64,000 nt of DNA from an uncultured Verrucomicrobiota bacterium (lineage in GTDB: Bacteria > Verrucomicrobiota > Kiritimatiellia > RFP12 > UBA1067), in the NCBI GenBank assembly GCA_946610035.1, contig CAMOCC010000004.1, forward strand, positions 3,158 through 67,157. Reading direction: 5' to 3'. The position numbers and the translations under genes are program-made. The stretch's first letter is position 1. Each line of letters begins with the position of its first letter. The notes below the pieces were generated by a model. That model did no database searches. It saw only the letters and a program-made list of their open reading frames with translations, and had not been told where the DNA came from. Shown in pieces: positions 3,177 to 36,921 of the stretch.

Positions 3177-4739
3177 ATGGATACGGTAGACACATCGAAA
3201 CTCGACCTTTCGTCGCTTGGCTCCCTCGACTTCACGCCCGCATGGGCGCGCAAGGACGCCGGCGTCACGATTGGAAAGACAACCCCCGAGCGACGTTCGG
3301 ACGACCGCCGGCCCGCCGGGGATCGCAAGGGCCCCGACCGCGACCGCAAGCCGGGCGGCGACCTCAAGCCGTTCGACAGGGACCGCAAGGCGGGCGGCGG
3401 CTTCGGCAAGAAGCCGTTCGACCGTTCGCGTCCGCGCTTCGAGGAGAGGCCTAAGCCCCTGAACGTCGATGTGAAGATCCTCCCCGAGACGAAGGCGCTC
3501 GGCACGATCATCCGCAAGCTCCAGCAGGACTTCCACGCCTTCAAGCTCAAGGACCTCGCGTACTTCTTCCTGGACAATCCGCAGTCCGTGCTCCTCAAGA
3601 TCACGCCGAAGCCCCCCGCGCAGGGCGAGCAGCCGAAGCCGCTCGGCTTCCACCAGTGCAAGGCGTGCGGCTTCGCGTCCAACAACGAGGCGGACGTCGT
3701 CTCGCACATCGTCGCCGCGCACCTGGGCGACTACTTCGATTCGAAGGAGGTCGACTGCGAGCCGCCGAAGGGCAACTTCAACTGCGTCGCCAAGTGCGGA
3801 CTCTCCGGCGTCCTGCTCGGGCCGCCGAACATCCACGAGTTCAACGCGACGGTCCGCGAGATGATAAGGACGCGCTATCCGGGCATGACGGAGGAGCAGT
3901 ACCGCTCGCACATCGAGATGGTGCGCGACCCCGAGGCGATCGAGGAGTGGCGCAAGGGCGCGGTCAAGCGCACGATTTTCACCGCGAAGGGCGCGGGGGA
4001 AGGCTCGCAGACATACACGCGCGAGCAGGCGGAGGCCGAGTTCAAGCGCACGATCCTGCCGTCCATGCTCGACGTCCCGAAGCACCTCATGATCACCGCC
4101 GACGTGGCCTTGAAGAGTCCGCTCCGCCCCCTTCAGTGGGCGGCGAAGGACGCGCTCGAGGCCGAGCGCCGTGCGCCGTACAACATGTGCTTCGCTTTGC
4201 GCGGGGCCTTCCACCACAGGAAGATGCACTTCTTCAGGGCGAACGATTCGCGCGGACCCGAGTTCGTCATCGGCATCGAGCCCAAGGCGTTCGACACCGC
4301 GCACGCAATTCCCGAGCTTGCGAAGGTCGCGACGTTCATAGCGGAGAATCCGTGCTCGGCCAAGGCGGACATCGCATCCGACCCCGAGTCGGAGAAGCAC
4401 CTCTCGTGGCTCGTTTCGACCGGGCACGTAATCGCCTTCACGAACGGCGTCTACTCGGCCGTCGAGAAGTTCCCGAAGTACGGCCCCCAGTGGCGCAAGA
4501 AGAAGACGGGGTCTGATAAGGTCGAAGTAGCGTCGGATAAGGTTGAGGCAGTGTCGGATAAGGTCGAGGCAGCGTTGGATGGCGGCGCGACCGCCGACAC
4601 TCCGGCACCCGAACCGGCCCCTGCGCCCGCCGCGCCTGCGCCCGTCGAACCCGAGCCTGCGCCCGCCGAACCTGCGCCCGTCGAACCCGAGCCTGCGCCC
4701 GCCGAACCTCAACCCGAGGCCGCCGCCGACCCTAAATGA
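3177..4739 (+). CDS. Hypothetical protein with basic disordered N-terminus, one classical C2H2 zinc-finger pattern and Pro/Ala/Glu-rich repeat tail
   Basis: 520-aa ORF with GC-typical codon use; CKACGFASNNEADVVSHIVAAH fits C-X2-C-X12-H-X4-H (nt 3657-3722); 21-bp x3 (SDKVExx) and 36-bp x2 (PAPVEPEPAPAE) coding repeats near the 3' end. Confidence 0.6.
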   Translation: MDTVDTSKLDLSSLGSLDFTPAWARKDAGVTIGKTTPERRSDDRRPAGDRKGPDRDRKPGGDLKPFDRDRKAGGGFGKKPFDRSRPRFEERPKPLNVDVKILPETKALGTIIRKLQQDFHAFKLKDLAYFFLDNPQSVLLKITPKPPAQGEQPKPLGFHQCKACGFASNNEADVVSHIVAAHLGDYFDSKEVDCEPPKGNFNCVAKCGLSGVLLGPPNIHEFNATVREMIRTRYPGMTEEQYRSHIEMVRDPEAIEEWRKGAVKRTIFTAKGAGEGSQTYTREQAEAEFKRTILPSMLDVPKHLMITADVALKSPLRPLQWAAKDALEAERRAPYNMCFALRGAFHHRKMHFFRANDSRGPEFVIGIEPKAFDTAHAIPELAKVATFIAENPCSAKADIASDPESEKHLSWLVSTGHVIAFTNGVYSAVEKFPKYGPQWRKKKTGSDKVEVASDKVEAVSDKVEAALDGGATADTPAPEPAPAPAAPAPVEPEPAPAEPAPVEPEPAPAEPQPEAAADPK

Positions 4740-7403: not shown

Positions 7404-8288
7404 ATGCGAAGTGTACTTTTGTGCATCATGGCGGCGTTGTCCATCGCCGCCGTCGCCGCCCCGGCGGGCGCGGCGGCGCCTGCGGCGCCCGCGTTCACAA
7501 GTTCGTTCCAGAAGCCGCCGTCGGCTAGCCTGAAGGCGCTGAGGGCGACTGTCGGCAAGCCGTTCAAGGAGGGCTACGTCTTCATAGACGGACGCTACCT
7601 CCCGCCGCCGTACAAGGTCGAGCGCTGGGGGACGGTCCTTAGGATCAACGGCGTGCAGGTGACGTCGGAGATCGTCCCGTGGGACGAGTTCGTGAAGACG
7701 CAGACCGGAGTGACGGCGACGAAGAGCGAGTCTCCCCTGTCGGACGACATCGGCGCAGCCGAGCCCGAGCCGGAGCCGGAGCCCGAGCCGGAGGAGGAGA
7801 TCGACGACGACGACAGCTCGCTCGACGATCTCTTCGACGACGATCCCGCGCCCAAGAAGAAGAAGCCGGCGAAGCGCAAGACGTACAAGCCGAAGCCGAA
7901 GAAGCCGACCGTCACCGTGACATACTCCTTCGACGGTGAGTTCACGCCCAACGAGAAGACGAAGGCGTATGTTGAGAAGATCAACAAGGAGCGAACCCGC
8001 ATCGACAAGGGCCTGAGGTCCGGCGGATACTTCTGCTTCAGCTCCAAGTACTCCACGGTGTCGGGGGACTCCGGTGCGGCGAAGCACATCATGCAGAAGC
8101 TTCCCGGCCTTATGAAGGACTACTCCAGCCTCGAGTCGTTCTCCGCGGCGGTTAACGCGGCCGGCTTCTCGTACCTGCCCCCCGCCCTGGTCAACGACCT
8201 CTTCAAGAACAGAATCGTCTATCCGCAGCTGATGAAGCGCATAAAGGACGCGGAGGAGGAGCGGAAGTGGATGTCCCTCGGGTTCTGA
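7404..8288 (+). CDS. Hypothetical secreted protein with acidic (EPEPEP, DDDD) and basic (KKKKPAKRK) low-complexity linker
   Basis: Signal-peptide-like MRSVLLCIMAALSIAAVAAPAGA after a GAAGGAAGG SD; no recognisable domain. Confidence 0.55.
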   Translation: MRSVLLCIMAALSIAAVAAPAGAAAPAAPAFTSSFQKPPSASLKALRATVGKPFKEGYVFIDGRYLPPPYKVERWGTVLRINGVQVTSEIVPWDEFVKTQTGVTATKSESPLSDDIGAAEPEPEPEPEPEEEIDDDDSSLDDLFDDDPAPKKKKPAKRKTYKPKPKKPTVTVTYSFDGEFTPNEKTKAYVEKINKERTRIDKGLRSGGYFCFSSKYSTVSGDSGAAKHIMQKLPGLMKDYSSLESFSAAVNAAGFSYLPPALVNDLFKNRIVYPQLMKRIKDAEEERKWMSLGF

Positions 8289-8422: not shown

Positions 8423-10426
<2,004 letters not shown>

Positions 10427-25792: not shown

Positions 25793-25836
25793 TCGCCAAT
25801 CGCTCGTTTTTCGGGCGTTAGGTTGGTTTTTCGCAT

Positions 25837-25862
25837 AAAACACAATCAACCGATTGTGTTTT
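25837..25862. promoter_or_regulatory. Perfect 11-bp inverted repeat AAAACACAATC-AACC-GATTGTGTTTT (terminator of uxaA and/or NrdR-like operator)
   Basis: Read directly; the half-sites ACACAAT/ATTGTGT equal NrdR-box halves but the centre is 4 nt longer; followed by TTTTAT. Confidence 0.4.
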
Positions 25863-25918
25863 ATCGATATCGTGTACACAAGAGGTAGATAACTTTTTAC
25901 AATTTCCCTCTTGTCAGA

Positions 25919-30762: not shown

Positions 30763-33700
30763 ATGAGTATTACCGACTATCTGAAGAAGATTCGTGACAA
30801 TGCCTGGAATACGGCGCAGCTCGGACGGGAGTTTGAGAAGTTCGTCAAGAAGTTCCTGTTGACTGAACCATCGTTCAAGTCGCAGTTCTCTGACGTGTGG
30901 CTGTGGAGCGAATGTCCGTTTGCGAATGGCAACGATGTCGGCATTGATCTTGTTGCAAAAAACTTCTTTGGCGAGTATGTGGCGATTCAGGCGAAGTGCT
31001 ATCAGCCGGGCACGCAAGTTGACAAGGCCGATGTCGATACATTCCTCTCGGCGTCGGGTAAGCAGATCGCGCCGGATGGCAAGGCGACCTTTTACTCCAA
31101 TCGCATCATTATCGCAACCAACGACAATTGGACGAGTCATGCGTCCGAGGCGATTGTCGATCAGCAGATCCCTGTCACGCGCATTGGACTCAATCAGATC
31201 CAGAATGCCGCGATAGACTGGGATAAGTTCTTCAAGGGCGAGAAGAAGGTCGTCGTCAAGAAGGAGCTCCGCAAGCATCAGGATGCCGCACTGAAGGATG
31301 TGGTCGAAGGTTTCAAGAAAGCCGACCGAGGGCAGCTCATTATGGCTTGCGGTACGGGCAAGACCTATACCTCGCTCAAGATCGCAGAAAAGCTTTGCCC
31401 AAAGGATGGCAGCGTTCTTTTCCTTGTTCCGTCTATCTCGCTTCTAGGGCAGTCCCTTCGCGAGTGGTGCGAACAGGCGGAGTCGCCTTTGACTGCGTTT
31501 GCCGTCTGCTCGGATGCGAAGGTGACGAAAGACCCGGATGACACCTCGCTCGCCGACCTCGGCTTTCCCGCGACCACATCTGCCGCGCAGCTTGTCGGCT
31601 ATGGCAAGAAGCTCAAGAAGAATCCGCCGAAGGGATTGACTGTCGTATTCTCCACCTACCAGTCAATCTCAGCCGTCCACGAGGCGCAGGAAGCGGGTGC
31701 GTTCGGCAAGTTCGATCTGATCATCTGCGACGAGGCGCACCGCACAACGGGCGCGATCTTCAAGGGACGCGAAGAGTCCGAGTTTGTCCGCGTCCATGAT
31801 GCCAAGTTCATCAAGGGCGTGAAGCGTCTCTACATGACGGCAACGCCGCGCATCTACGGCGAGAACGCCAAGAAGAAAGCAGATGACGAATTCATCGAGC
31901 TTTGCTCCATGGACGATGAGTCCAAGTACGGACGTGAATTCCATCACCTGACGTTTGCGCAGGCAGTCAAGGAGGAGCTGCTGACCGATTACAAGGTGTT
32001 GATCCTTGCCGTGGACGAGAAGGACATGCGCGAACTCCATCTTGCAGATCGCGATGGTGACGGTGAGATAGATTCGGTCGATCAGCTGGCGAAGATCGTT
32101 GGCACGTGGAAGGGGCTCAACAAGCAGATCTACAAGGATGACGAGAAGTTTCTTGGCAACGATTTTTCGCCGATGCGCTCGGCCGTTGCGTTCTCGTCCA
32201 CCATCGCGGACTCCAAGTCTTTCACGGGGCAGTTCAATGCTGTCATTGACGAACACTTTGGCGAGGACGAGAAGTTGCAGCCGGTGGCAATCAATCACGT
32301 TGACGGTGGCATGAACGCACTCTATCGCTCGCGCATGATCGAGTGGTTGCGCGAGGCGAACGAGGAAACGGGATGCCGTATCCTGTCCAATGCCAAGTGC
32401 CTTTCGGAAGGTGTCGATGTCCCCGGGCTGGACGCGGTGATCTTCCTCTCGCCCAAGAACAGCTTTGTCGAGGTCGTTCAGGCCATTGGGCGCGTCATGC
32501 GCAAGGCGCCGGGCAAGCAGCTCGGTTATGTCATCATCCCCGTGTTGATTCCGATGGGGATGGATGCGTCGGAGGCGCTTTCGACCAATAAGCGGTTCAA
32601 GGTCATTTGGGATGTCCTCTCGGCGATTCGTTCGCATGATGAGGCGTTTAACGCGCTTGACAACAAGGTGGACATCATCCGCGTCAAGCCTCCGAAGAAG
32701 CGCAAGCCAAATGTCGGTCCGGGGCCTGGCAATCCTGACGCTGATGATCCCGACGGCGAGGAAGATCCGCCGATTATAATCGACGCCGAACGCTTCAACG
32801 AATACAAGAAGGCGATACAGGCGAAGCTCGTCAAGGCGTGTGGCGAGCACAAGTACTGGAGCGTCTGGGCCGCGGAGATTGCCGATATCGTCCAGACGCA
32901 GATCAAGCGCATCACGGCGCTTTTGAAGGACGAGAAAGGGCCCTACGAAAAGGACTTCTCGAAGTTCCATGCCACGCTGAAATCGAATCTCAACAACACG
33001 GTGACGCGGGATGAGGCGATTGCGATGCTGGCGCAGCAGCTGGTGTCAGCGCCGATTTTCGACGCCCTTTTCTCGGACTACCAGTTCATCCGCAACAACC
33101 CGATTTCCAAATCGCTCGAAAAGTTGCTGGCTCGTCTCAACGAGAACATTGACAAGAAGGATCGCGAGACGCTTGACCGCTTCTACGAGTCGGTGCGCCA
33201 CAAGGCGAGCGACAAGACGACCGCCGCGCAGAAGCAGCAGATCGTCGTACAGCTCTATAACAACTTCTTCAATATCGCGTTCAAGGACACGGTCGAGAAG
33301 CTGGGCATTGTCTATACGCCGGTTCCGGTGGTGGACTTCATCGTGAAGTCGGTGGAGCGCGTCCTCAACAGGCATTTCAAGGCGTCGATTTCGGATAAGG
33401 GCGTCCATATCATCGATCCCTTTACGGGAACAGGTACGTTCATCACGCGCCTCCTGCAGTCGGGCATCATCAAACCGAAGGACTTGCTCTACAAGTACAC
33501 CCACGAGATTCACGCGAACGAAATCGTCCTCCTCGCCTACTACATCGCGGCAATCAACATCGAGTCGGTCTTCCATGACCAGATTGCCGACGGCAAGTTC
33601 CATCCGTTTGACGGCATCGTGTTGACCGATACCTTCCAGCTGGGAGAGAATTCAGATGACTTGCCGGGTATCTTTCCCGAAAACTCCGAACGTGCTGCCA

Positions 33701-34128
33701 AGCAGAAGAAGCTGGACATCCGCGTGGTGATGGGCAACCCGCCGTATAATGTCTCAAAGGGGACAAGTTACCCGAATTTGGAACGACGCATTGCCGAGAC
33801 GTATGCGCAGGGGACTGATGCGGTGAACAAGAATTCACTTTACGATTCCTACATCAAGGCATTCCGCTGGGCGTCTGATCGCATCAAGGATCGTGGAGTG
33901 GTGGCGTTCGTCACGAACGGCGGCTGGCTCGATGCTCAGGCGATGGACGGTTTCCGCAATTCGCTTGTGAAGGAATTCGACCACATCTATGTTTTCAACC
34001 TTCGCGGTAACCAGAGAACACAAGGAGAGGTTTCACGTCGTGAAGGAGGGAAGATATTTGGGTCGGGTTCGCGTACGCCTGTCGCAATTACGATCCTTGT
34101 GAAGACGGGGGGGGGGCGAAATGAATAA
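30763..34128 (+). CDS. Type ISP-like restriction-modification protein, N-terminal part: Mrr-like nuclease + SF2 helicase/translocase + N6-adenine MTase core
   Basis: GIDLVAK..AIQAKCY nuclease-like motif; GTGKT (31351-31365); DEAH (31729-31740); DPFTGTGTF motif I (~33411-33440); NPPY (33736-33747). Confidence 0.85.
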   Translation: MSITDYLKKIRDNAWNTAQLGREFEKFVKKFLLTEPSFKSQFSDVWLWSECPFANGNDVGIDLVAKNFFGEYVAIQAKCYQPGTQVDKADVDTFLSASGKQIAPDGKATFYSNRIIIATNDNWTSHASEAIVDQQIPVTRIGLNQIQNAAIDWDKFFKGEKKVVVKKELRKHQDAALKDVVEGFKKADRGQLIMACGTGKTYTSLKIAEKLCPKDGSVLFLVPSISLLGQSLREWCEQAESPLTAFAVCSDAKVTKDPDDTSLADLGFPATTSAAQLVGYGKKLKKNPPKGLTVVFSTYQSISAVHEAQEAGAFGKFDLIICDEAHRTTGAIFKGREESEFVRVHDAKFIKGVKRLYMTATPRIYGENAKKKADDEFIELCSMDDESKYGREFHHLTFAQAVKEELLTDYKVLILAVDEKDMRELHLADRDGDGEIDSVDQLAKIVGTWKGLNKQIYKDDEKFLGNDFSPMRSAVAFSSTIADSKSFTGQFNAVIDEHFGEDEKLQPVAINHVDGGMNALYRSRMIEWLREANEETGCRILSNAKCLSEGVDVPGLDAVIFLSPKNSFVEVVQAIGRVMRKAPGKQLGYVIIPVLIPMGMDASEALSTNKRFKVIWDVLSAIRSHDEAFNALDNKVDIIRVKPPKKRKPNVGPGPGNPDADDPDGEEDPPIIIDAERFNEYKKAIQAKLVKACGEHKYWSVWAAEIADIVQTQIKRITALLKDEKGPYEKDFSKFHATLKSNLNNTVTRDEAIAMLAQQLVSAPIFDALFSDYQFIRNNPISKSLEKLLARLNENIDKKDRETLDRFYESVRHKASDKTTAAQKQQIVVQLYNNFFNIAFKDTVEKLGIVYTPVPVVDFIVKSVERVLNRHFKASISDKGVHIIDPFTGTGTFITRLLQSGIIKPKDLLYKYTHEIHANEIVLLAYYIAAINIESVFHDQIADGKFHPFDGIVLTDTFQLGENSDDLPGIFPENSERAAKQKKLDIRVVMGNPPYNVSKGTSYPNLERRIAETYAQGTDAVNKNSLYDSYIKAFRWASDRIKDRGVVAFVTNGGWLDAQAMDGFRNSLVKEFDHIYVFNLRGNQRTQGEVSRREGGKIFGSGSRTPVAITILVKTGGGRNE
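34107..34116. repeat. Homopolymeric G10 tract 5 nt upstream of the nested-gene ATG
   Basis: Read directly; encodes GGG at the C-terminus of ORF 30763-34128. Confidence 0.95.
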
Positions 34129-35317
34129 TGATTCAAAACAGCGCAGTGCCGCACTTGGCATTGTCGCCGCCGTCCGCGAAATCAAGGCGGCGATTCTCAG
34201 GACGCGCTACATGGCGGCGCGTCTGGCGAACGCGGAAATGCTCAAACTGTACTTTGGAACAGGTGCGTACGTTTCGGTGAATTCACGTAAAGGAAAGTGG
34301 GGGACCGGGGCAATCGCCGAGATTTCCTCAAGGCTTCAGCAGGAGTTGCCGGGGCTGAAGGGTTTCTCGGAAAGTTCAATCAAAAGGATGCGACGTTTTT
34401 TTGAGGTGTGGTGTCCGGAGGCAATTCGTCAATCGGTGATTGACGAATTGGCGACTGACAGTAGTTTGCCCATGGCAAATCGCCCATCGGCAATGGGCGA
34501 TTTGTCGGGAAACGCCGTCCTTATGGTTGCAGATTCCGAATTTCGCCCATCGACAATGGGCGAAATGTCGGAAGCGGACTTTGCATGCTTTTGCGCTGTA
34601 CCATTCACGCAACACACGGTGTTATTCGAGAAATGCAAGCAGCCAGAAGAGATGTGGTACTACATTCGGCGTGCGGCTACTGAGTTTTGGAGCGTGACCG
34701 CGTTGAAGACGCATATAAGAGCAGGGGACTACAGGCGGCGAGGCAAACTGCCCAACAATTTCGCGCTGACGATTCCCGCGCCGGAACTTGCCGTGAGGGC
34801 GGCAAGGATGTTCTCGGACGAGGTGTTCCTTGAGGGCATCAACGTCGGTGAAGACGAAGGAGACGTCGACGAGAGGCTGCTGGAGCATGAGATCGTAGCA
34901 AACATACGCAAATTCATGATGTCGCTCGGACCGGACTTCTGCTTCATGGGCGAGCAGTTCCGCGTCATAGTGCAGGACGAGGAGCAGTTTATCGATCTTC
35001 TGTTCTACAATCGAGCGCTGAAGTGCCTGATTGCCCTTGAGCTGAAGGGCGGGAAGTTCAAGCCTGCGTACCTTGGACAGCTTAACTTCTATCTGTCCGC
35101 GCTCGATGACAAGGTGAAGAGACCCGACGAGAATGCGTCCATCGGGATTGTCCTGTGTCGCGAGGCGAACAGGGGTTTTGTGGAGATGGCGATCCGCGAC
35201 ATGACGAAGCCAATGGGTGTCGCCGTGTTCCGAAGTGACAAAAGGGTACCCAGGGCCTATCGCCAGCTGGAGCCAATGCTCAAGGGGCTGACAGAGATTA
35301 TGGAGGACCGGTCATGA
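34121..35317 (+). CDS. YhcG/DUF1016-family PD-(D/E)xK nuclease-like protein nested inside the R-M gene
   Basis: ..EEMWYYIRRAATEFWSV..L...I.., C-terminal ..IDLLFYNRALKCLIALELKGGKFKPAYLGQLNFYL.. core typical of DUF1016. Confidence 0.8.
   Translation: MNNDSKQRSAALGIVAAVREIKAAILRTRYMAARLANAEMLKLYFGTGAYVSVNSRKGKWGTGAIAEISSRLQQELPGLKGFSESSIKRMRRFFEVWCPEAIRQSVIDELATDSSLPMANRPSAMGDLSGNAVLMVADSEFRPSTMGEMSEADFACFCAVPFTQHTVLFEKCKQPEEMWYYIRRAATEFWSVTALKTHIRAGDYRRRGKLPNNFALTIPAPELAVRAARMFSDEVFLEGINVGEDEGDVDERLLEHEIVANIRKFMMSLGPDFCFMGEQFRVIVQDEEQFIDLLFYNRALKCLIALELKGGKFKPAYLGQLNFYLSALDDKVKRPDENASIGIVLCREANRGFVEMAIRDMTKPMGVAVFRSDKRVPRAYRQLEPMLKGLTEIMEDRS
34477..34566. repeat. Two 27-bp perfect palindromes (AAATCGCCCAT-CGGCA-ATGGGCGATTT at 34477-34503; ATTTCGCCCAT-CGACA-ATGGGCGAAAT at 34540-34566)
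   Basis: Read directly; outer positions differ between the copies but change in a compensatory way. Confidence 0.9.
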
Positions 35318-36921
35318 GCGCGACAATCCATTATCACGACATCGGCGATTACTTGAGCCGCGAGGAGAAGCTGAAGATCATCGACGACTTCGGCGACATT
35401 TCGGGCATTGAATGGCAGGCGCTTACCCCGGACAAACACGGCGACTGGCTCAACAAGCGCGACAGCGAATTCGACGACTACATCCCGCTCGCGCCGGAAG
35501 AGAAGTTCGACTATCTCTCGAAGAGTTGGTTCACGGTCAATTCATCGGGACTCAAAACTGGAATGGACGACACCGCAACCGGCTATTCGAGACAATGCGT
35601 ACTTGATGCGGTCAAGAAAAAGATTGGCCATTCAGAAAAGCCTAAAACCGTCGAGTATTCCTATCGCCCGTTCAACAAGCAGTGGCTCTACTACGACCGT
35701 GAGACGAACCAACGCCAATACCGCATACCCAATATCTTCCCGCTCGGCGACTCTGCGTCTCTGCGCGAGAAAAAATACCCTAACAAGGTGATATGCGTTA
35801 CAGGCGCTGGCGGTTCTAAAGACTTTTCATGCATCATCACTGACGTGATTCCCGACCTTCATTTCTGCGGCGACGTTCAGGCCTTCCCCTTGTATTGGTA
35901 TGAGGAAATCAAAGCCGATACATCTGTGATGGAACTGCCGGGGCTTGAAAAGCAGAGTGGCTACATCAAGCACGATGCGATCAGCGATTTCATCTTGTTG
36001 GAGTTTCGCAAGATTGCCGGGCCGAGGGTGCAGAAGGAGGACATCTTCAACTATGTCTATGGCGCATTGCACAATCCCGATTACCGCGCCAAATTCGCCG
36101 CGGACTTGAAGAAGCAACTGCCGCGGTTGCCGCTCCCGAAGAATCGCAGGGAATTCGAGAAGATCGAGAAAATCGGACGCGAACTTGCGAACCTTCACTT
36201 GCACTACGAGGAAATCGATCCGTGGCCGCTTGATGAAATTGCCGCGGGCAATATTGATTATCGTGTGGAGAAGATGGCGTGGGCGAAGGACGGCAAGACA
36301 GTCCGCAAGGACATGCTCGTTGTGAATCCGTCGCTCACTCTTACGAGCATCCCGAAGGAAGCGCACGAGTATGTGGTCAATGGCCGTACGCCGCTTGAAT
36401 GGTTGATTGAACGGTATCAGGTTTCCATCCATGCCGAGTCTGGTATCAAGAACGATCCGAACAAGTGGGGAGAGGAACATAATTACCCCGAGTATATCGT
36501 CGAGTTGGTGAAGCGCATTGTCCGGCTGAGTGTCGAGACCGTGCGTTTGGTCTGTGAACTTGGCGACGGCAAGAAGGCTGCCGCGAAAGATACTACACGG
36601 GCACATCCGAGCGCCACGCCGCCGTATTGGTGGAAGTCCGGCAAGTGGGGCGTCGCTTCGCCAATGCCGGAGGGCGGTCATGTCGTCATGGGCCTCAAGC
36701 ACAAATGGTACGACAAGATAGAGGCAGGGCTTAAGCACGAAGAGCAGCGAGAGGTCAAGCCATTCTGGGATGCGAAGCTTGCCGGGCGCAAAGGCAAGGA
36801 GCTCCGCGCCGTGACCTTCATGAAGGGCCAGGCCTCCACGGAGCAAATGACCTGGGAAGTCCTCCGCGTCGATCTCCGCGGCAACTACTACTGCCTCGAA
36901 CTCGGCAAGAGGATTGCGTAA
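35314..36921 (+). CDS. Detached Type ISP/IIG C-terminal specificity (TRD) module fused to an ASCH-like domain
   Basis: YRPFNKQWLYYD, FPLYWY, LHNPDYRAKFAADLKKQLPRLPLP, LHLHYE, EYVVNGRTPLEWL motifs; tail MGLKHKWYDKIEAGLKHEEQRE.. resembles the ASCH/PUA-like fold. Confidence 0.75.
   Translation: MSATIHYHDIGDYLSREEKLKIIDDFGDISGIEWQALTPDKHGDWLNKRDSEFDDYIPLAPEEKFDYLSKSWFTVNSSGLKTGMDDTATGYSRQCVLDAVKKKIGHSEKPKTVEYSYRPFNKQWLYYDRETNQRQYRIPNIFPLGDSASLREKKYPNKVICVTGAGGSKDFSCIITDVIPDLHFCGDVQAFPLYWYEEIKADTSVMELPGLEKQSGYIKHDAISDFILLEFRKIAGPRVQKEDIFNYVYGALHNPDYRAKFAADLKKQLPRLPLPKNRREFEKIEKIGRELANLHLHYEEIDPWPLDEIAAGNIDYRVEKMAWAKDGKTVRKDMLVVNPSLTLTSIPKEAHEYVVNGRTPLEWLIERYQVSIHAESGIKNDPNKWGEEHNYPEYIVELVKRIVRLSVETVRLVCELGDGKKAAAKDTTRAHPSATPPYWWKSGKWGVASPMPEGGHVVMGLKHKWYDKIEAGLKHEEQREVKPFWDAKLAGRKGKELRAVTFMKGQASTEQMTWEVLRVDLRGNYYCLELGKRIA

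What the first reader, a model, noticed from the sequence alone, without database searches (positions are those of the whole stretch)
34477..34566. Twin perfect 27-bp palindromes with compensatory substitutions inside the nested DUF1016 gene
Copy 1 (34477-34503) is AAATCGCCCAT-CGGCA-ATGGGCGATTT. Copy 2 (34540-34566) is ATTTCGCCCAT-CGACA-ATGGGCGAAAT. Between the copies, left-arm positions 2-3 change AA to TT and the paired right-arm positions change TT to AA, so both copies stay perfectly self-complementary. Each can be extended by a few imperfect pairs (..CCGA / GTCGG..). Such covariation indicates selection on the palindrome itself, as an operator for a dimeric DNA-binding protein, a recombination or nuclease site, or an RNA/DNA hairpin. 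The peptide they encode (..MANRPSAMGDLSG.. / ..EFRPSTMGEMSE..) lies in what looks like a variable insert of the DUF1016 N-terminal region.
Basis: seen in the sequence. Interest (0 to 1): 0.6.

Follow-up and report, generated by a model that had tools for sequence, protein, structure and literature searches.

The report
Conserved palindromes inside DUF1016 nuclease gene
The palindromes are real (there are three, not two) and are local copies of a roughly 25-base self-complementary DNA element that about nine in ten sampled genes of the widespread DUF1016/YhcG nuclease family, including E. coli K-12 yhcG, keep at the same spot through paired base changes, for a purpose still unknown.

Summary
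Observation confirmed and extended. All three are centred on a first codon position.

They are not private to this gene. In 178 homologues from many phyla, 160 (90%) have such an element in the same linker, between invariant W97 and F157. Only 2 of 178 matched control segments do. The outer stem (AAWTYG...CRAWTT) and the ~25-nt span are conserved. The inner stem varies freely but stays complementary. The same DNA is read in three different frame combinations, so the nucleic acid is conserved, not the peptide.

Neither strand shows the G-U tolerance of an RNA helix. No Rfam family, terminator or dispersed repeat fits. Close relatives show a mismatched intermediate being compensated.

The gene is a one-ORF cassette, here splitting a Type ISP restriction enzyme and elsewhere sitting between Type III mod and res.

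Function is unproven. My best guess is a DNA-level cis site carried inside the ORF and kept perfect partly by template switching. A purely self-perpetuating palindrome remains a serious rival. I found no published description, but this scan has met the element many times.

The parts
34422..34450 (.). Palindrome copy 1, 13+3+13, CAATTCGTCAATC-ggt-GATTGACGAATTG. It encodes A-IRQSVIDEL-A and sits at canonical family position A (centre 27 nt after the W97 codon).
34476..34504 (.). Palindrome copy 2, 12+5+12, CAAATCGCCCAT-cggca-ATGGGCGATTTG. It encodes ANRPSAMGDL. This is the extra, middle copy, and its peptide lies in the predicted disordered loop.
34540..34566 (.). Palindrome copy 3, 11+5+11, ATTTCGCCCAT-cgaca-ATGGGCGAAAT, imperfectly extendable to 34534-34572. 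It encodes EFRPSTMGEM and sits at canonical family position B (centre 36 nt before the F157 codon).
34409..34591 (+). Variable linker of the DUF1016_N domain, from the invariant W97 codon to the invariant F157 codon. It holds all three palindromes. Residues ~115-147 have pLDDT below 50.
34121..35317 (+). DUF1016/YhcG gene (398 aa): DUF1016_N (PF17761) plus YhcG_C PD-(D/E)XK nuclease (PF06250); PADLOC candidate defence family PDC-S02. It is a promoter-less one-ORF cassette whose start overlaps the upstream stop by 8 nt and whose stop overlaps the downstream start by 4 nt.
30763..34128 (+). N-terminal part of a Type ISP restriction-modification enzyme (Mrr-type nuclease, SF2 translocase, coupler, N6-adenine methyltransferase). 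It maps to positions 3-1163 of a single-chain profile.
35314..36921 (+). Detached Type ISP C-terminal specificity (TRD) part. It maps to positions 1318-1641 of the same single-chain profile.

Best explanation
Shown: the three palindromes are this gene's copies of a ~25-nt self-complementary element that belongs to DUF1016/YhcG genes as a family. It sits in the disordered linker of the N-terminal domain. Its outer stem is conserved at DNA level (AAWTYG ... CRAWTT) at a fixed distance from the centre, and its inner stem is free to vary as long as both arms change together. Inferred: the element works, or is maintained, as DNA rather than as an RNA helix, because neither strand shows wobble-specific tolerance. 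Arm perfection is restored after single-arm mutations roughly ten times faster than neutral point mutation would manage. That speed fits intramolecular template switching, selection, or both. Most likely mechanism (speculative): it is a cis-acting DNA site, a duplex palindrome or extruded hairpin/cruciform, that must travel with the gene. The gene is a promoter-less single-ORF cassette that moves between unrelated restriction operons (Type ISP here, Type III in 79-86% identical relatives, solitary in E. coli). The only place it can carry a private cis site is inside its own reading frame. The only partner that is always present is its own product, so self-recognition (autoregulation or self-marking by the DUF1016 protein) is the most economical reading. 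The confidence figure applies to 'functional DNA-level cis element'. The descriptive part I hold at above 0.9, and 'bound by its own protein' at about 0.15.
For: Family-wide and position-locked: the element is present in 160/178 genes against 2/178 control segments. Perfect hairpins with arms of 10 or more occur at 5.52/kb in the linker, 0.062/kb in the rest of the genes and 0.086/kb in 947 kb of flanks. It is present in E. coli K-12 yhcG (3 copies) and in the most distant genes sampled (10 of 11 in the lowest-scoring bins, which include the ~28-36%-identical phage-contig genes). Nucleic acid, not peptide: the same DNA motif is read in three arm/frame combinations (156 I/N-R...D/E-L; 42 N-S...A-E-L; 8 I-R/W...P-N-S/W). 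There are 364 cells with changes on both sides against 115+-8 in shuffles, and slid-partner controls drop pairing to 20-43%. Fixed geometry: the motif starts 11.5-13 nt from the centre in 177/188 elements, and the outer positions carry 1-2 bits against 0.06-0.8 bits for the inner ones. DNA-like: with a selection criterion blind to wobble type, pairs are 85% Watson-Crick, 4.9% G.T, 6.5% A.C and 3.4% transversion, so neither strand tolerates G-U preferentially. No Rfam hit. Active maintenance: at copy 1 the series runs CGC/GGC (L195, L199, L190), then CGC/GAC with a C.A mismatch (L189, 97% aa identical), then CGT/GAC, perfect again in the window. One-arm differences predominate in the closest gene pairs (10% against 1.7% at four-fold divergence below 0.1), and both-arm differences dominate at saturation (40% against 7%). 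Gene specificity: no flank hairpin shares an 8-mer with the intragenic arms, and a motif-only scan of 2.9 M viral contigs hit 5 places, 4 of them inside DUF1016 ORFs. Cassette behaviour: homology to the Type III-context relatives begins ~35-45 nt after the ATG and ends ~10 nt before the stop.
Against: No member of the family has been assayed, so nothing here shows binding, cleavage or regulation. Every DNA-level mark (strict pairing, symmetry on both strands, compensated changes) is also what template switching alone would produce (PMC5941160). The slight excess of symmetry at +-1 from the centre (63% against 48%), where a hairpin cannot pair, hints at templated copying or shared ancestry. The N-terminal domain models confidently but has no significant structural match to any DNA-binding fold (best E = 3.4; Noc/ParB hits have probability 0.11-0.15). 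Copy spacing shows no convincing helical phasing. Stems are not significantly depleted of strain-level differences (1 of 70 stem nt against 5.5% gene-wide, P about 0.1). Copies within one gene have different inner stems, which argues against a purely sequence-specific operator. An 11-13-bp cruciform needs substantial negative supercoiling. Later checks recorded in this scan priced 'own nuclease binds or cuts it' at 6-12%.
Confidence: 0.4

Rival explanations
1. No function: a self-perpetuating palindrome. An ancient inverted repeat arose once in a permissive, disordered linker. Intramolecular template switching keeps it perfect by copying one arm onto the other, and slippage or unequal exchange between copies multiplies or removes it. 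Protein-level constraint on one arm plus templated copying would explain the conserved outer motif even where the other arm is read in a different frame.
For: The encoded peptides of copies 2 and 3 lie in a pLDDT<50 loop. Copy number runs from 0 to 5 and changes among relatives at least 75% identical. Classes B and C each keep one arm in the class-A frame. Symmetry slightly exceeds chance at +-1, where no hairpin pair can form. The implied correction rate, about 13 times the per-site substitution rate, lies within published quasi-palindrome rates (inference). Perfect inverted repeats are generally over-conserved in Proteobacteria, which has been attributed to template switching (PMC5941160).
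Against: It must explain 90% retention down to ~28% protein identity across many phyla. It must also explain a fixed 25-nt span and outer motif rather than arms drifting in length and position, and two canonical positions relative to the protein anchors. Comparable coding palindromes are almost absent from the rest of these genes (0.062/kb). One-arm intermediates persist for measurable evolutionary time, so correction is not overwhelmingly fast.
Confidence: 0.3
2. Sense-strand mRNA hairpins that modulate translation, processing or stability. For example, they could set the expression ratio of genes upstream and downstream of the cassette in restriction operons, or act as a site where the protein binds its own mRNA.
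For: The element lies within a transcribed ORF, and rumen metatranscriptome contigs carry 34445-34621 unchanged. Predicted RNA folding is very strong (z = -7.3). A cassette without its own promoter could be regulated post-transcriptionally.
Against: G.T pairs (4.9%) are no more frequent than A.C mismatches (6.5%), which an RNA helix would not tolerate. All four Watson-Crick pair types interchange, including transversion pairs with no wobble path (A-T and C-G at columns 12/22: 67 and 59). Loops are only 3-5 nt and unconserved. No Rfam family matches. The copies are not terminator-like. The element is equally present in solitary genes such as E. coli yhcG.
Confidence: 0.12
3. Antisense-strand structure: an antisense RNA, or the template strand as single-stranded DNA, folds into the hairpins.
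For: The raw count of transition mismatches is biased towards A.C on the sense strand, which would be G.U on the antisense strand: 53 against 21, or 35 against 12 after collapsing related elements. Both imperfect E. coli copies carry an A.C-type mismatch.
Against: The bias is a property of the coding strand. At a control position without any palindrome, A.C-type pseudo-pairs outnumber G.T-type 403 to 159. Synonymous transitions create A.C mismatches 1.67 times more often than G.T (320 against 192), and about 10 cases are locked by stop codons. With a neutral criterion the two classes are 150 against 114. No antisense promoter or transcript evidence could be obtained, because only unstranded contigs were available.
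Confidence: 0.05
4. A dispersed mobile palindromic element (REP/REPIN, MITE or Rickettsia-RPE type) that happens to have inserted in frame in this gene.
For: In-frame coding palindromes of selfish origin exist in Rickettsia (Ogata 2000, 2002, cited in PMC4316617). Copy number varies. In E. coli, related palindromes occur outside yhcG (L081 633-657 and 8971-8995).
Against: No other copy exists in the 64-kb window. No similar hairpin occurs in 947 kb of homologue flanks. The two apparent upstream orphans in L067 lie inside a second, truncated DUF1016 ORF. The motif-only scan found 4 of 5 hits inside DUF1016 ORFs, and the fifth looks like an ordinary terminator. The element follows the gene across phyla, not a genome. 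The E. coli extragenic copies sit just after stop codons, like terminators.
Confidence: 0.03
5. Protein-level repeat: the peptide motif (x-N/I-R-x...D/E-L) is what is selected, and the DNA symmetry is incidental.
For: A recognisable peptide repeat exists across homologues, and copy 1's peptide is modelled as a short helix in the full-length model.
Against: Codon choice is exactly what complementarity requires, including at synonymous sites. The same DNA is translated in three frame combinations into unrelated peptides. The peptides covary in the way base pairing dictates (RQ with ID, RP with MG, RH with SD). The segment is low-confidence or disordered.
Confidence: 0.02

Closest known systems
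Protein-coding palindromes of Rickettsia (RPE elements; Ogata et al. 2000, 2002, as cited in PMC4316617)
   Same: Both are self-complementary DNA inserted in frame in protein-coding genes, translated into surface or loop segments, and variable in copy number.
   Different: RPEs are 100-150 bp selfish repeats scattered over many unrelated genes and intergenic sites of one genus. This element is ~25 nt, tied to one gene family, locked to one site and codon phase, and follows that family across phyla.
Quasi-palindrome correction by template switching, and over-conservation of perfect inverted repeats in Proteobacteria (Lavi et al. 2018, PMC5941160)
   Same: Perfect arms, apparently compensated changes, and symmetry on both strands. 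It is a plausible maintenance mechanism for this element.
   Different: That work describes a general mutational tendency of short inverted repeats. It does not predict a family-specific element with a conserved outer motif, fixed span and two canonical positions, kept in 90% of genes down to ~28% protein identity.
Folded single-strand recombination or transposition sites: integron attC, REP sequences with RAYT, IS200/IS605 ends (from my own knowledge)
   Same: In these sites recognition combines a conserved stem base with a structurally, not sequence-, constrained stem. They also carry a variable inner sequence with maintained pairing.
   Different: Those sites are intergenic or at element ends, are imperfect with functional extrahelical bases or flanking guide or cleavage motifs, and come with a tyrosine or HUH recombinase. 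Here the stems are perfect, lie inside an ORF, and no recombinase is consistently nearby.
Operators and origin repeats located inside coding sequences, such as lac O2 in lacZ and lambda ori iterons in gene O (from my own knowledge)
   Same: They are cis-acting DNA sites embedded in, and translated as part of, a gene, in some cases bound by that gene's own product.
   Different: Those sites have a defined sequence read by a known protein, and their spacers need not be symmetric. Here the inner 6-7 bp of each arm differ between copies of the same gene yet remain complementary, and no binding protein is known.
Accessory genes nested in restriction-modification operons (DUF1016, RhuM and others next to specificity genes; PMC9881135, PMC3424549)
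   Same: The host gene's context matches. DUF1016 is 17-fold enriched next to genes targeted by programmed inversions and co-occurs with MTase, Res and S domains. Here it sits directly upstream of the Type ISP specificity ORF.
   Different: Those papers describe gene neighbourhoods only, and none mentions an internal palindrome. Splitting a normally single-chain Type ISP enzyme at the MTase/TRD junction is not among the contexts they list.

Membership tests
DUF1016/YhcG intragenic palindrome (unpublished, seen repeatedly in this scan) | Lies in the linker of DUF1016_N between the invariant Trp (W97) and Phe (F157) anchors | tested here: met
   All three copies lie in 34409-34591. Copy 1 has its centre 27 nt after the W97 codon and copy 3 has its centre 36 nt before the F157 codon, which are the two modal family positions.
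DUF1016/YhcG intragenic palindrome (unpublished, seen repeatedly in this scan) | Outer stem motif AAWTYG...CRAWTT with a span of about 25 nt | tested here: met
   The copies read AATTCG, AAATCG and ATTTCG. The third departs at one paired position. The motif starts 11.5-13 nt from the centre in 177/188 family elements.
DUF1016/YhcG intragenic palindrome (unpublished, seen repeatedly in this scan) | Inner stem variable but complementary, with changes on both arms across homologues | tested here: met
   10 of 12 stem pairs show double-sided changes, with 364 such cells against 115+-8 in shuffles. The window's copies differ from each other by compensated changes.
DUF1016/YhcG intragenic palindrome (unpublished, seen repeatedly in this scan) | In frame, with the centre phase-locked to the codons | tested here: met
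   All three centres fall on codon position 1, as in 156 of 208 family elements.
REP / REPIN elements | Many dispersed, mostly intergenic copies in the same genome, with an associated RAYT gene | tested here: not met
   No further copy in the 64-kb window and none in 947 kb of homologue flanks.
Integron attC site | Imperfect palindrome at a cassette boundary, with extrahelical bases and a nearby IntI integrase | tested here: not met
   The stems are perfect and lie ~300 nt inside the ORF. The homology boundaries of the cassette are at the ORF ends, not at the hairpins. No integrase appears among the neighbours.
Rickettsia-type coding palindromes (RPE) | 100-150 bp repeat family inserted in many unrelated genes of one lineage | tested here: not met
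   The element is 25-29 nt, confined to one gene family, and found across phyla.
Intrinsic (rho-independent) terminator | G+C-rich stem followed by a run of at least ~5 T in 8 | tested here: not met
   None of the three copies is called by the terminator scan, and each is followed by only TTT or AAT.
Structured RNA family | Match to a curated covariance model, and G-U tolerated far more than A.C in helices | tested here: not met
   The best Rfam hits fall far below their gathering scores. G.T is 4.9% against A.C 6.5% of stem positions.
Palindromic operator of a dimeric DNA-binding protein | Conserved half-sites at fixed spacing | tested here: met
   The outer 6 nt of each arm are conserved at a fixed distance.
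Palindromic operator of a dimeric DNA-binding protein | A cognate protein with a recognisable DNA-binding fold that binds the site | tested here: inconclusive
   The N-domain model is confident (pTM 0.73) but has no significant PDB match. Noc/ParB HTH hits reach probabilities of only 0.11-0.15. Binding cannot be tested with these tools.
Template-switch-maintained quasi-palindrome | Single-arm mutations converted to perfect palindromes in one templated step | not testable with these tools
   Mismatched intermediates and completed compensations are both seen, but sequence data cannot tell a templated step from mutation plus selection.

The most novel reading that the evidence does not exclude
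DUF1016/YhcG genes are self-contained 'protein plus site' modules. The palindromes would be the cognate DNA ligand of the encoded nuclease, as duplex or extruded hairpin/cruciform. They are written into the protein's own disordered linker because the gene is a promoter-less cassette that hops between restriction operons and has nowhere else to carry a private cis site. Binding would give autoregulation or self/non-self marking of the locus.
Probability: 0.15. Interest if true: 0.85.

Novelty: new variant of a known kind. Interest (0 to 1): 0.6.

Why it matters
If the element is functional, a very common but uncharacterised bacterial nuclease family hides a conserved nucleic-acid signal inside its reading frame. 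The family is a PADLOC defence candidate (PDC-S02), is present in E. coli K-12, and is enriched next to restriction specificity genes. That would give the first experimental handle on what these proteins recognise, and it is directly testable in a laboratory strain by synonymous recoding and binding assays. If the element is not functional, it is an unusually clean natural example of a palindrome kept perfect for very long times by templated repair while being translated. That is useful for measuring template switching against selection, and it is a warning that covariation alone does not prove a functional structure. Either way, annotation and alignment of this family should treat the linker as DNA-constrained, not protein-constrained.

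Tried and rejected
1. Antisense-strand folding inferred from an excess of A.C over G.T mismatches (53:21). Rejected: synonymous opportunity (320:192) and stop-codon locks explain much of it, and a palindrome-free control position shows the same bias (403:159). With a neutral criterion the counts are 150:114.
2. Known RNA family: Rfam gave only sub-threshold noise.
3. Intrinsic terminator: not called.
4. Recombination breakpoint at the hairpins. N- and C-part identities correlate (r = 0.75), and the one clear mosaic pair (L133/L172) has its breakpoint ~100-200 nt downstream of the hairpins. Cassette homology ends at the ORF ends.
5. Helically phased cooperative sites: spacing is broad, and the weak periodic signal is dominated by one 57-nt class.
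6. Dispersed repeat or orphan copies: none found in the window or in homologue flanks.
7. Reduced strain-level polymorphism of stems. The SNP-poor block 34379-34644 in four metagenomes looks like shared haplotypes. Against L189 the depletion is not significant.
8. Transcript evidence: only unstranded metatranscriptome contigs were available. They show the segment intact but give no strand or end information.
10. Fold of the N-domain: no significant PDB match. The full-length model matched only PD-(D/E)XK nucleases weakly. No sequence match to solved structures.
Full report
1. THE OBSERVATION

The two palindromes are in the sequence exactly as described. One is 34477-34503, AAATCGCCCAT-CGGCA-ATGGGCGATTT, extendable to 12+5+12 at 34476-34504. 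The other is 34540-34566, ATTTCGCCCAT-CGACA-ATGGGCGAAAT. The AA/TT swap between them is compensated on both arms.

Start-to-start spacings are 54 and 63 nt, so all three are in frame, and all three centres fall on a first codon position.

The whole 64-kb window has only four distinct perfect hairpins with arms of 10 or more, and three are here. Shuffles give a mean of 0.72 scan rows against 10 observed. A degenerate family pattern hits only these three sites, against 0.08 expected. The 181-nt segment folds into exactly three hairpins as RNA (z = -7.3) or DNA (z = -9.2).

2. THE HOST GENE AND ITS SURROUNDINGS

ORF 34121-35317 is a DUF1016_N + YhcG_C PD-(D/E)XK nuclease, which PADLOC lists as defence candidate PDC-S02. 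Its DUF1016_N match spans 187 residues against a 137-position profile, which implies an insert of about 50 residues.

The gene interrupts a Type ISP restriction-modification enzyme:
- ORF 30763-34128 (Mrr nuclease, translocase, coupler, methyltransferase) maps to positions 3-1163 of a single-chain profile.
- ORF 35314-36921 (Type_ISP_C) maps to positions 1318-1641 of the same profile.
- Stops and starts overlap by 8 and 4 nt.

A 97%-identical orthologue in another assembly has the same arrangement, so the split is stable.

Relatives that are 79-86% identical sit instead between the mod and res genes of Type III systems. DNA homology to them begins ~35-45 nt after the ATG and ends ~10 nt before the stop, and the flanks are unrelated. 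The ORF therefore behaves as a one-gene, promoter-less cassette that occurs in different restriction operons.

The local island (about 28.9-41.8 kb) also holds a patatin-like phospholipase, a KAP NTPase and a GmrSD-like protein, between nrdD and hisS. The source is a bovine gut or rumen bacterium.

3. THE PALINDROMES ARE A FAMILY TRAIT

More than 5,000 homologues were found. In their alignment, the stretch between invariant W97 and F157 is a variable-length linker. It holds 0-5 short repeats such as NRQLPTADL, IRHLASDEL, NRPSAMGDL, IGSTLSNQL and NSAVATAEL. Their residues are coupled as base pairing would dictate: RQ with ID, RP with MG, RH with SD.

I fetched DNA for 188 loci from genomes, metagenomes and viral contigs. 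They cover Bacteroidota, Lentisphaerota, Verrucomicrobiota, Kiritimatiellota, Actinomycetota, Bacillota, Spirochaetota and Pseudomonadota. The main counts are:
- An element with at least 9 Watson-Crick pairs and at most 1 mismatch is present in the linker of 160 of 178 genes. It is present in 2 of 178 equal-length control segments of the same genes. It persists in 10 of the 11 most distant genes (the lowest-scoring bins, which include the ~28-36%-identical phage-contig genes).
- Perfect hairpins with arms of 10 or more occur at 5.52/kb in the linker, 0.062/kb in the rest of the genes and 0.086/kb in 947 kb of flanks.
- E. coli K-12 yhcG has three copies: L081 8130-8156 and 8167-8197, each with one mismatch, and a perfect 15+3+15 at 8205-8237.
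- There are two canonical positions, one centred 27-30 nt after the W97 codon and one 27-36 nt before the F157 codon. The window's copies 1 and 3 occupy them exactly, and copy 2 is an extra unit.

4. WHAT IS CONSERVED

The first base of the outer motif A-A-W-T-Y-G lies 11.5-13 nt from the centre in 177 of 188 elements. The outer positions carry 1-2 bits, while the inner positions carry 0.06-0.8 bits.

On a gap-free alignment of 128 mutually distinct elements, 10 of 12 stem pairs show changes on both sides. There are 364 such cells against 115+-8 in shuffles (0 of 500 shuffles reach the observed value). Sliding the partner by 1-3 columns drops pairing from 94% to 20-43%. The percentage paired is partly circular, because elements were selected by pairing. 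The density contrasts in section 3 are the non-circular evidence.

The same DNA is read in three frame combinations:
- 156 elements: centre on codon position 1 (left arm I/N-R, right arm D/E-L).
- 42 elements: centre between positions 1 and 2 (left arm shifted to N-S).
- 8 elements: centre between position 3 and the next position 1 (right arm shifted to P-N-S/W).

Neither arm's peptide is invariant, so the nucleic acid is the conserved object.

AlphaFold models put residues ~115-147 (copies 2 and 3) at pLDDT below 50, between confident helices. In the domain-only model, copy 1's peptide is also of low confidence.

5. RNA OR DNA, AND WHICH STRAND

An initial count suggested a bias towards A.C mismatches on the sense strand, which would be wobble pairs on the antisense strand: 53 against 21. 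This did not survive controls:
- Synonymous transitions in these stems create A.C 1.67 times more often than G.T.
- About ten cases are locked by stop codons.
- A palindrome-free control position in the same genes shows A.C-type pseudo-pairs at 403 against 159.

With a selection criterion blind to wobble type, 210 elements have 85% Watson-Crick, 4.9% G.T, 6.5% A.C and 3.4% transversion positions. Neither strand shows the preferential G-U tolerance of an RNA helix. All four Watson-Crick pair types interchange, including transversion pairs with no wobble path.

Other results on this question:
- No Rfam family matches, and no copy looks like a terminator.
- Symmetry weakens towards the centre (at least 94% in the stem, 73% at +-2, 63% at +-1, about 48% by chance), as expected for a stem with a 3-5-nt loop. 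The small excess at +-1 cannot be due to hairpin pairing.
- Rumen metatranscriptome contigs carry 34445-34621 unchanged, so the segment is not removed from RNA, but contigs have no strand.

6. DYNAMICS

Among close relatives, copy 1 shows a complete compensatory path:
- CGC/GGC, perfect, Gly (L195, L199, L190).
- CGC/GAC, a C.A mismatch, Asp (L189, 97% aa identical to the window).
- CGT/GAC, perfect again after a synonymous change on the other arm (the window).

Copy 2 shows RQSAI/RPSAM alternatives with C-G/A-T swaps. Copy number runs from 2 to 5 among proteins at least 75% identical. The units share only the hairpin, not the spacers, so they are not simple tandem duplications.

Across 952 gene pairs with a position-A element, one-arm differences predominate in the closest pairs: 10% against 1.7% of inner pairs when four-fold-site divergence is below 0.1. 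Both-arm differences dominate at saturation, 40% against 7%. From the ~7% steady-state mismatch fraction I infer, roughly, that pairing is restored about ten times faster than neutral point mutation alone would manage. That is compatible with modest selection or with template switching at about 1e-9 per generation.

In four metagenomes the block 34379-34644 shows one variant, 34504 G>A, which breaks the outermost pair of copy 2. The flanks show 17 variable sites, but many are shared and look like haplotype mosaicism. Against L189, 1 of 70 stem nucleotides differs against 5.5% gene-wide, which is not significant.

7. WHAT IT IS NOT

- Not a dispersed repeat. No other copy exists in the window. 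No flank hairpin shares an 8-mer with the intragenic arms. Two apparent upstream orphans in L067 lie in a truncated second DUF1016 ORF.
- Gene-specific in a motif-only scan. Among 2.9 million viral contigs the motif found five places. Four are inside DUF1016 ORFs and one is an intergenic, terminator-like hairpin.
- Not a recombination breakpoint.
- Not helically phased.

8. MECHANISM

Shown: a family-specific, position- and phase-locked palindrome conserved as nucleic acid.

Inferred: it is maintained at DNA level.

Speculative but preferred (0.4): it is a cis-acting DNA site that the promoter-less cassette must carry inside its own ORF. The only constant partner is the gene's own product (about 0.15 for that specific step).

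The main rival (0.3) is a functionless palindrome in a permissive loop, perpetuated by template switching (PMC5941160). A sense-mRNA hairpin (0.12) is disfavoured by the mismatch spectrum.

The N-domain has no significant structural relative (best E = 3.4; Noc/ParB hits at probability 0.11-0.15). The full model matches only PD-(D/E)XK nucleases weakly (MGME1, RecE, Cas4, NucS, XisH, Hjc). No solved homologue exists by sequence.

9. PRIOR KNOWLEDGE

In the searchable literature, DUF1016 appears in three roles: a predicted PD-(D/E)XK family co-occurring with restriction domains (PMC3424549), a family 17-fold enriched beside genes targeted by programmed inversions (PMC9881135), and cargo of mobile elements (PMC4316617). 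No paper mentions an internal palindrome.

Earlier notes of this scan report the same element in at least 98 genomes. Their later checks uphold the observation and price 'own nuclease binds or cuts it' at 6-12%. I treated these as leads and re-derived the family-wide pattern independently.

- The third local copy.
- The two canonical positions.
- The three frame classes, quantified.
- The observed compensation series.
- The one-arm against both-arm time course.
- The demonstration that the apparent strand bias is compositional.
- The cassette boundaries between Type ISP and Type III contexts.

10. LIMITS

Stranded RNA data could not be obtained. All functional statements are inference.

Noticed in passing
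window 34107-34116: A G10 homopolymer lies 4 nt upstream of the DUF1016 ATG, inside the last codons of the Type ISP N-part. The 97% relative L189 has GGGGGAGAAGG there and L195 has GGGTGGAAAGGAGG, so the uninterrupted run is specific to this sequence. It could be a slippage-prone tract that changes the frame relation of the two ORFs, or an assembly artefact.
   Followed up: partly
window 35521-35920: The detached Type ISP specificity ORF has a hypervariable block, with 26-44 differences per 100 nt against L189 where the surrounding DNA has 1-12. This is as expected if the strains recognise different target sequences.
   Followed up: partly
window ~36921 onwards, compared with L189 8792-11367: Homology with the 97% relative ends at the stop of the specificity ORF. 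The window continues with a KAP NTPase and a GmrSD-like gene, while L189 has HATPase_c_3 and ApeA_NTD1 genes. The accessory defence genes downstream of the same restriction module have been swapped.
   Followed up: partly
window 25835-25864: The only other perfect hairpin in the window with arms of 10 or more is ATAAAACACAATC-aacc-GATTGTGTTTTAT (13+4+13). It lies in the intergenic region between an altronate dehydratase gene and nrdD. Its motif differs from the DUF1016 element. It may be a terminator or an operator of the nrd gene.
   Followed up: no
L190-L199 (e.g. L190 4008-9913): DUF1016 genes 79-86% identical to the window's sit between the mod (N6_N4_Mtase) and res (ResIII) genes of Type III systems, preceded by a small HTH_26 gene. 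Homology is limited to the ORF, so the gene behaves as a cassette shared between different kinds of restriction operon.
   Followed up: yes
L081 (E. coli K-12 MG1655) 633-657 and 8971-8995: Two perfect palindromes resembling the yhcG-internal element lie outside the gene. ATTCGCCAGAC-tgt-GTCTGGCGAAT starts 16 nt after the end of gltD, and ATTCTGCAGACA-g-TGTCTGCAGAAT starts 16 nt after the end of yhcG. Their positions suggest terminators, and the resemblance is unexplained.
   Followed up: no
L133 versus L172/L174: This is a mosaic pair of DUF1016 genes. The N-terminal part is 55% identical and the C-terminal part 96-100% identical. The DNA identity step lies about 100-200 nt downstream of the hairpins.
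   Followed up: partly
L067 3852-4355 (minus strand): A truncated second DUF1016 N-terminal ORF (168 aa) lies 1.9 kb upstream of the full gene. It still carries two motif-bearing perfect hairpins (3973-3999 and 4029-4057), so the palindromes persist in a gene fragment.
   Followed up: partly
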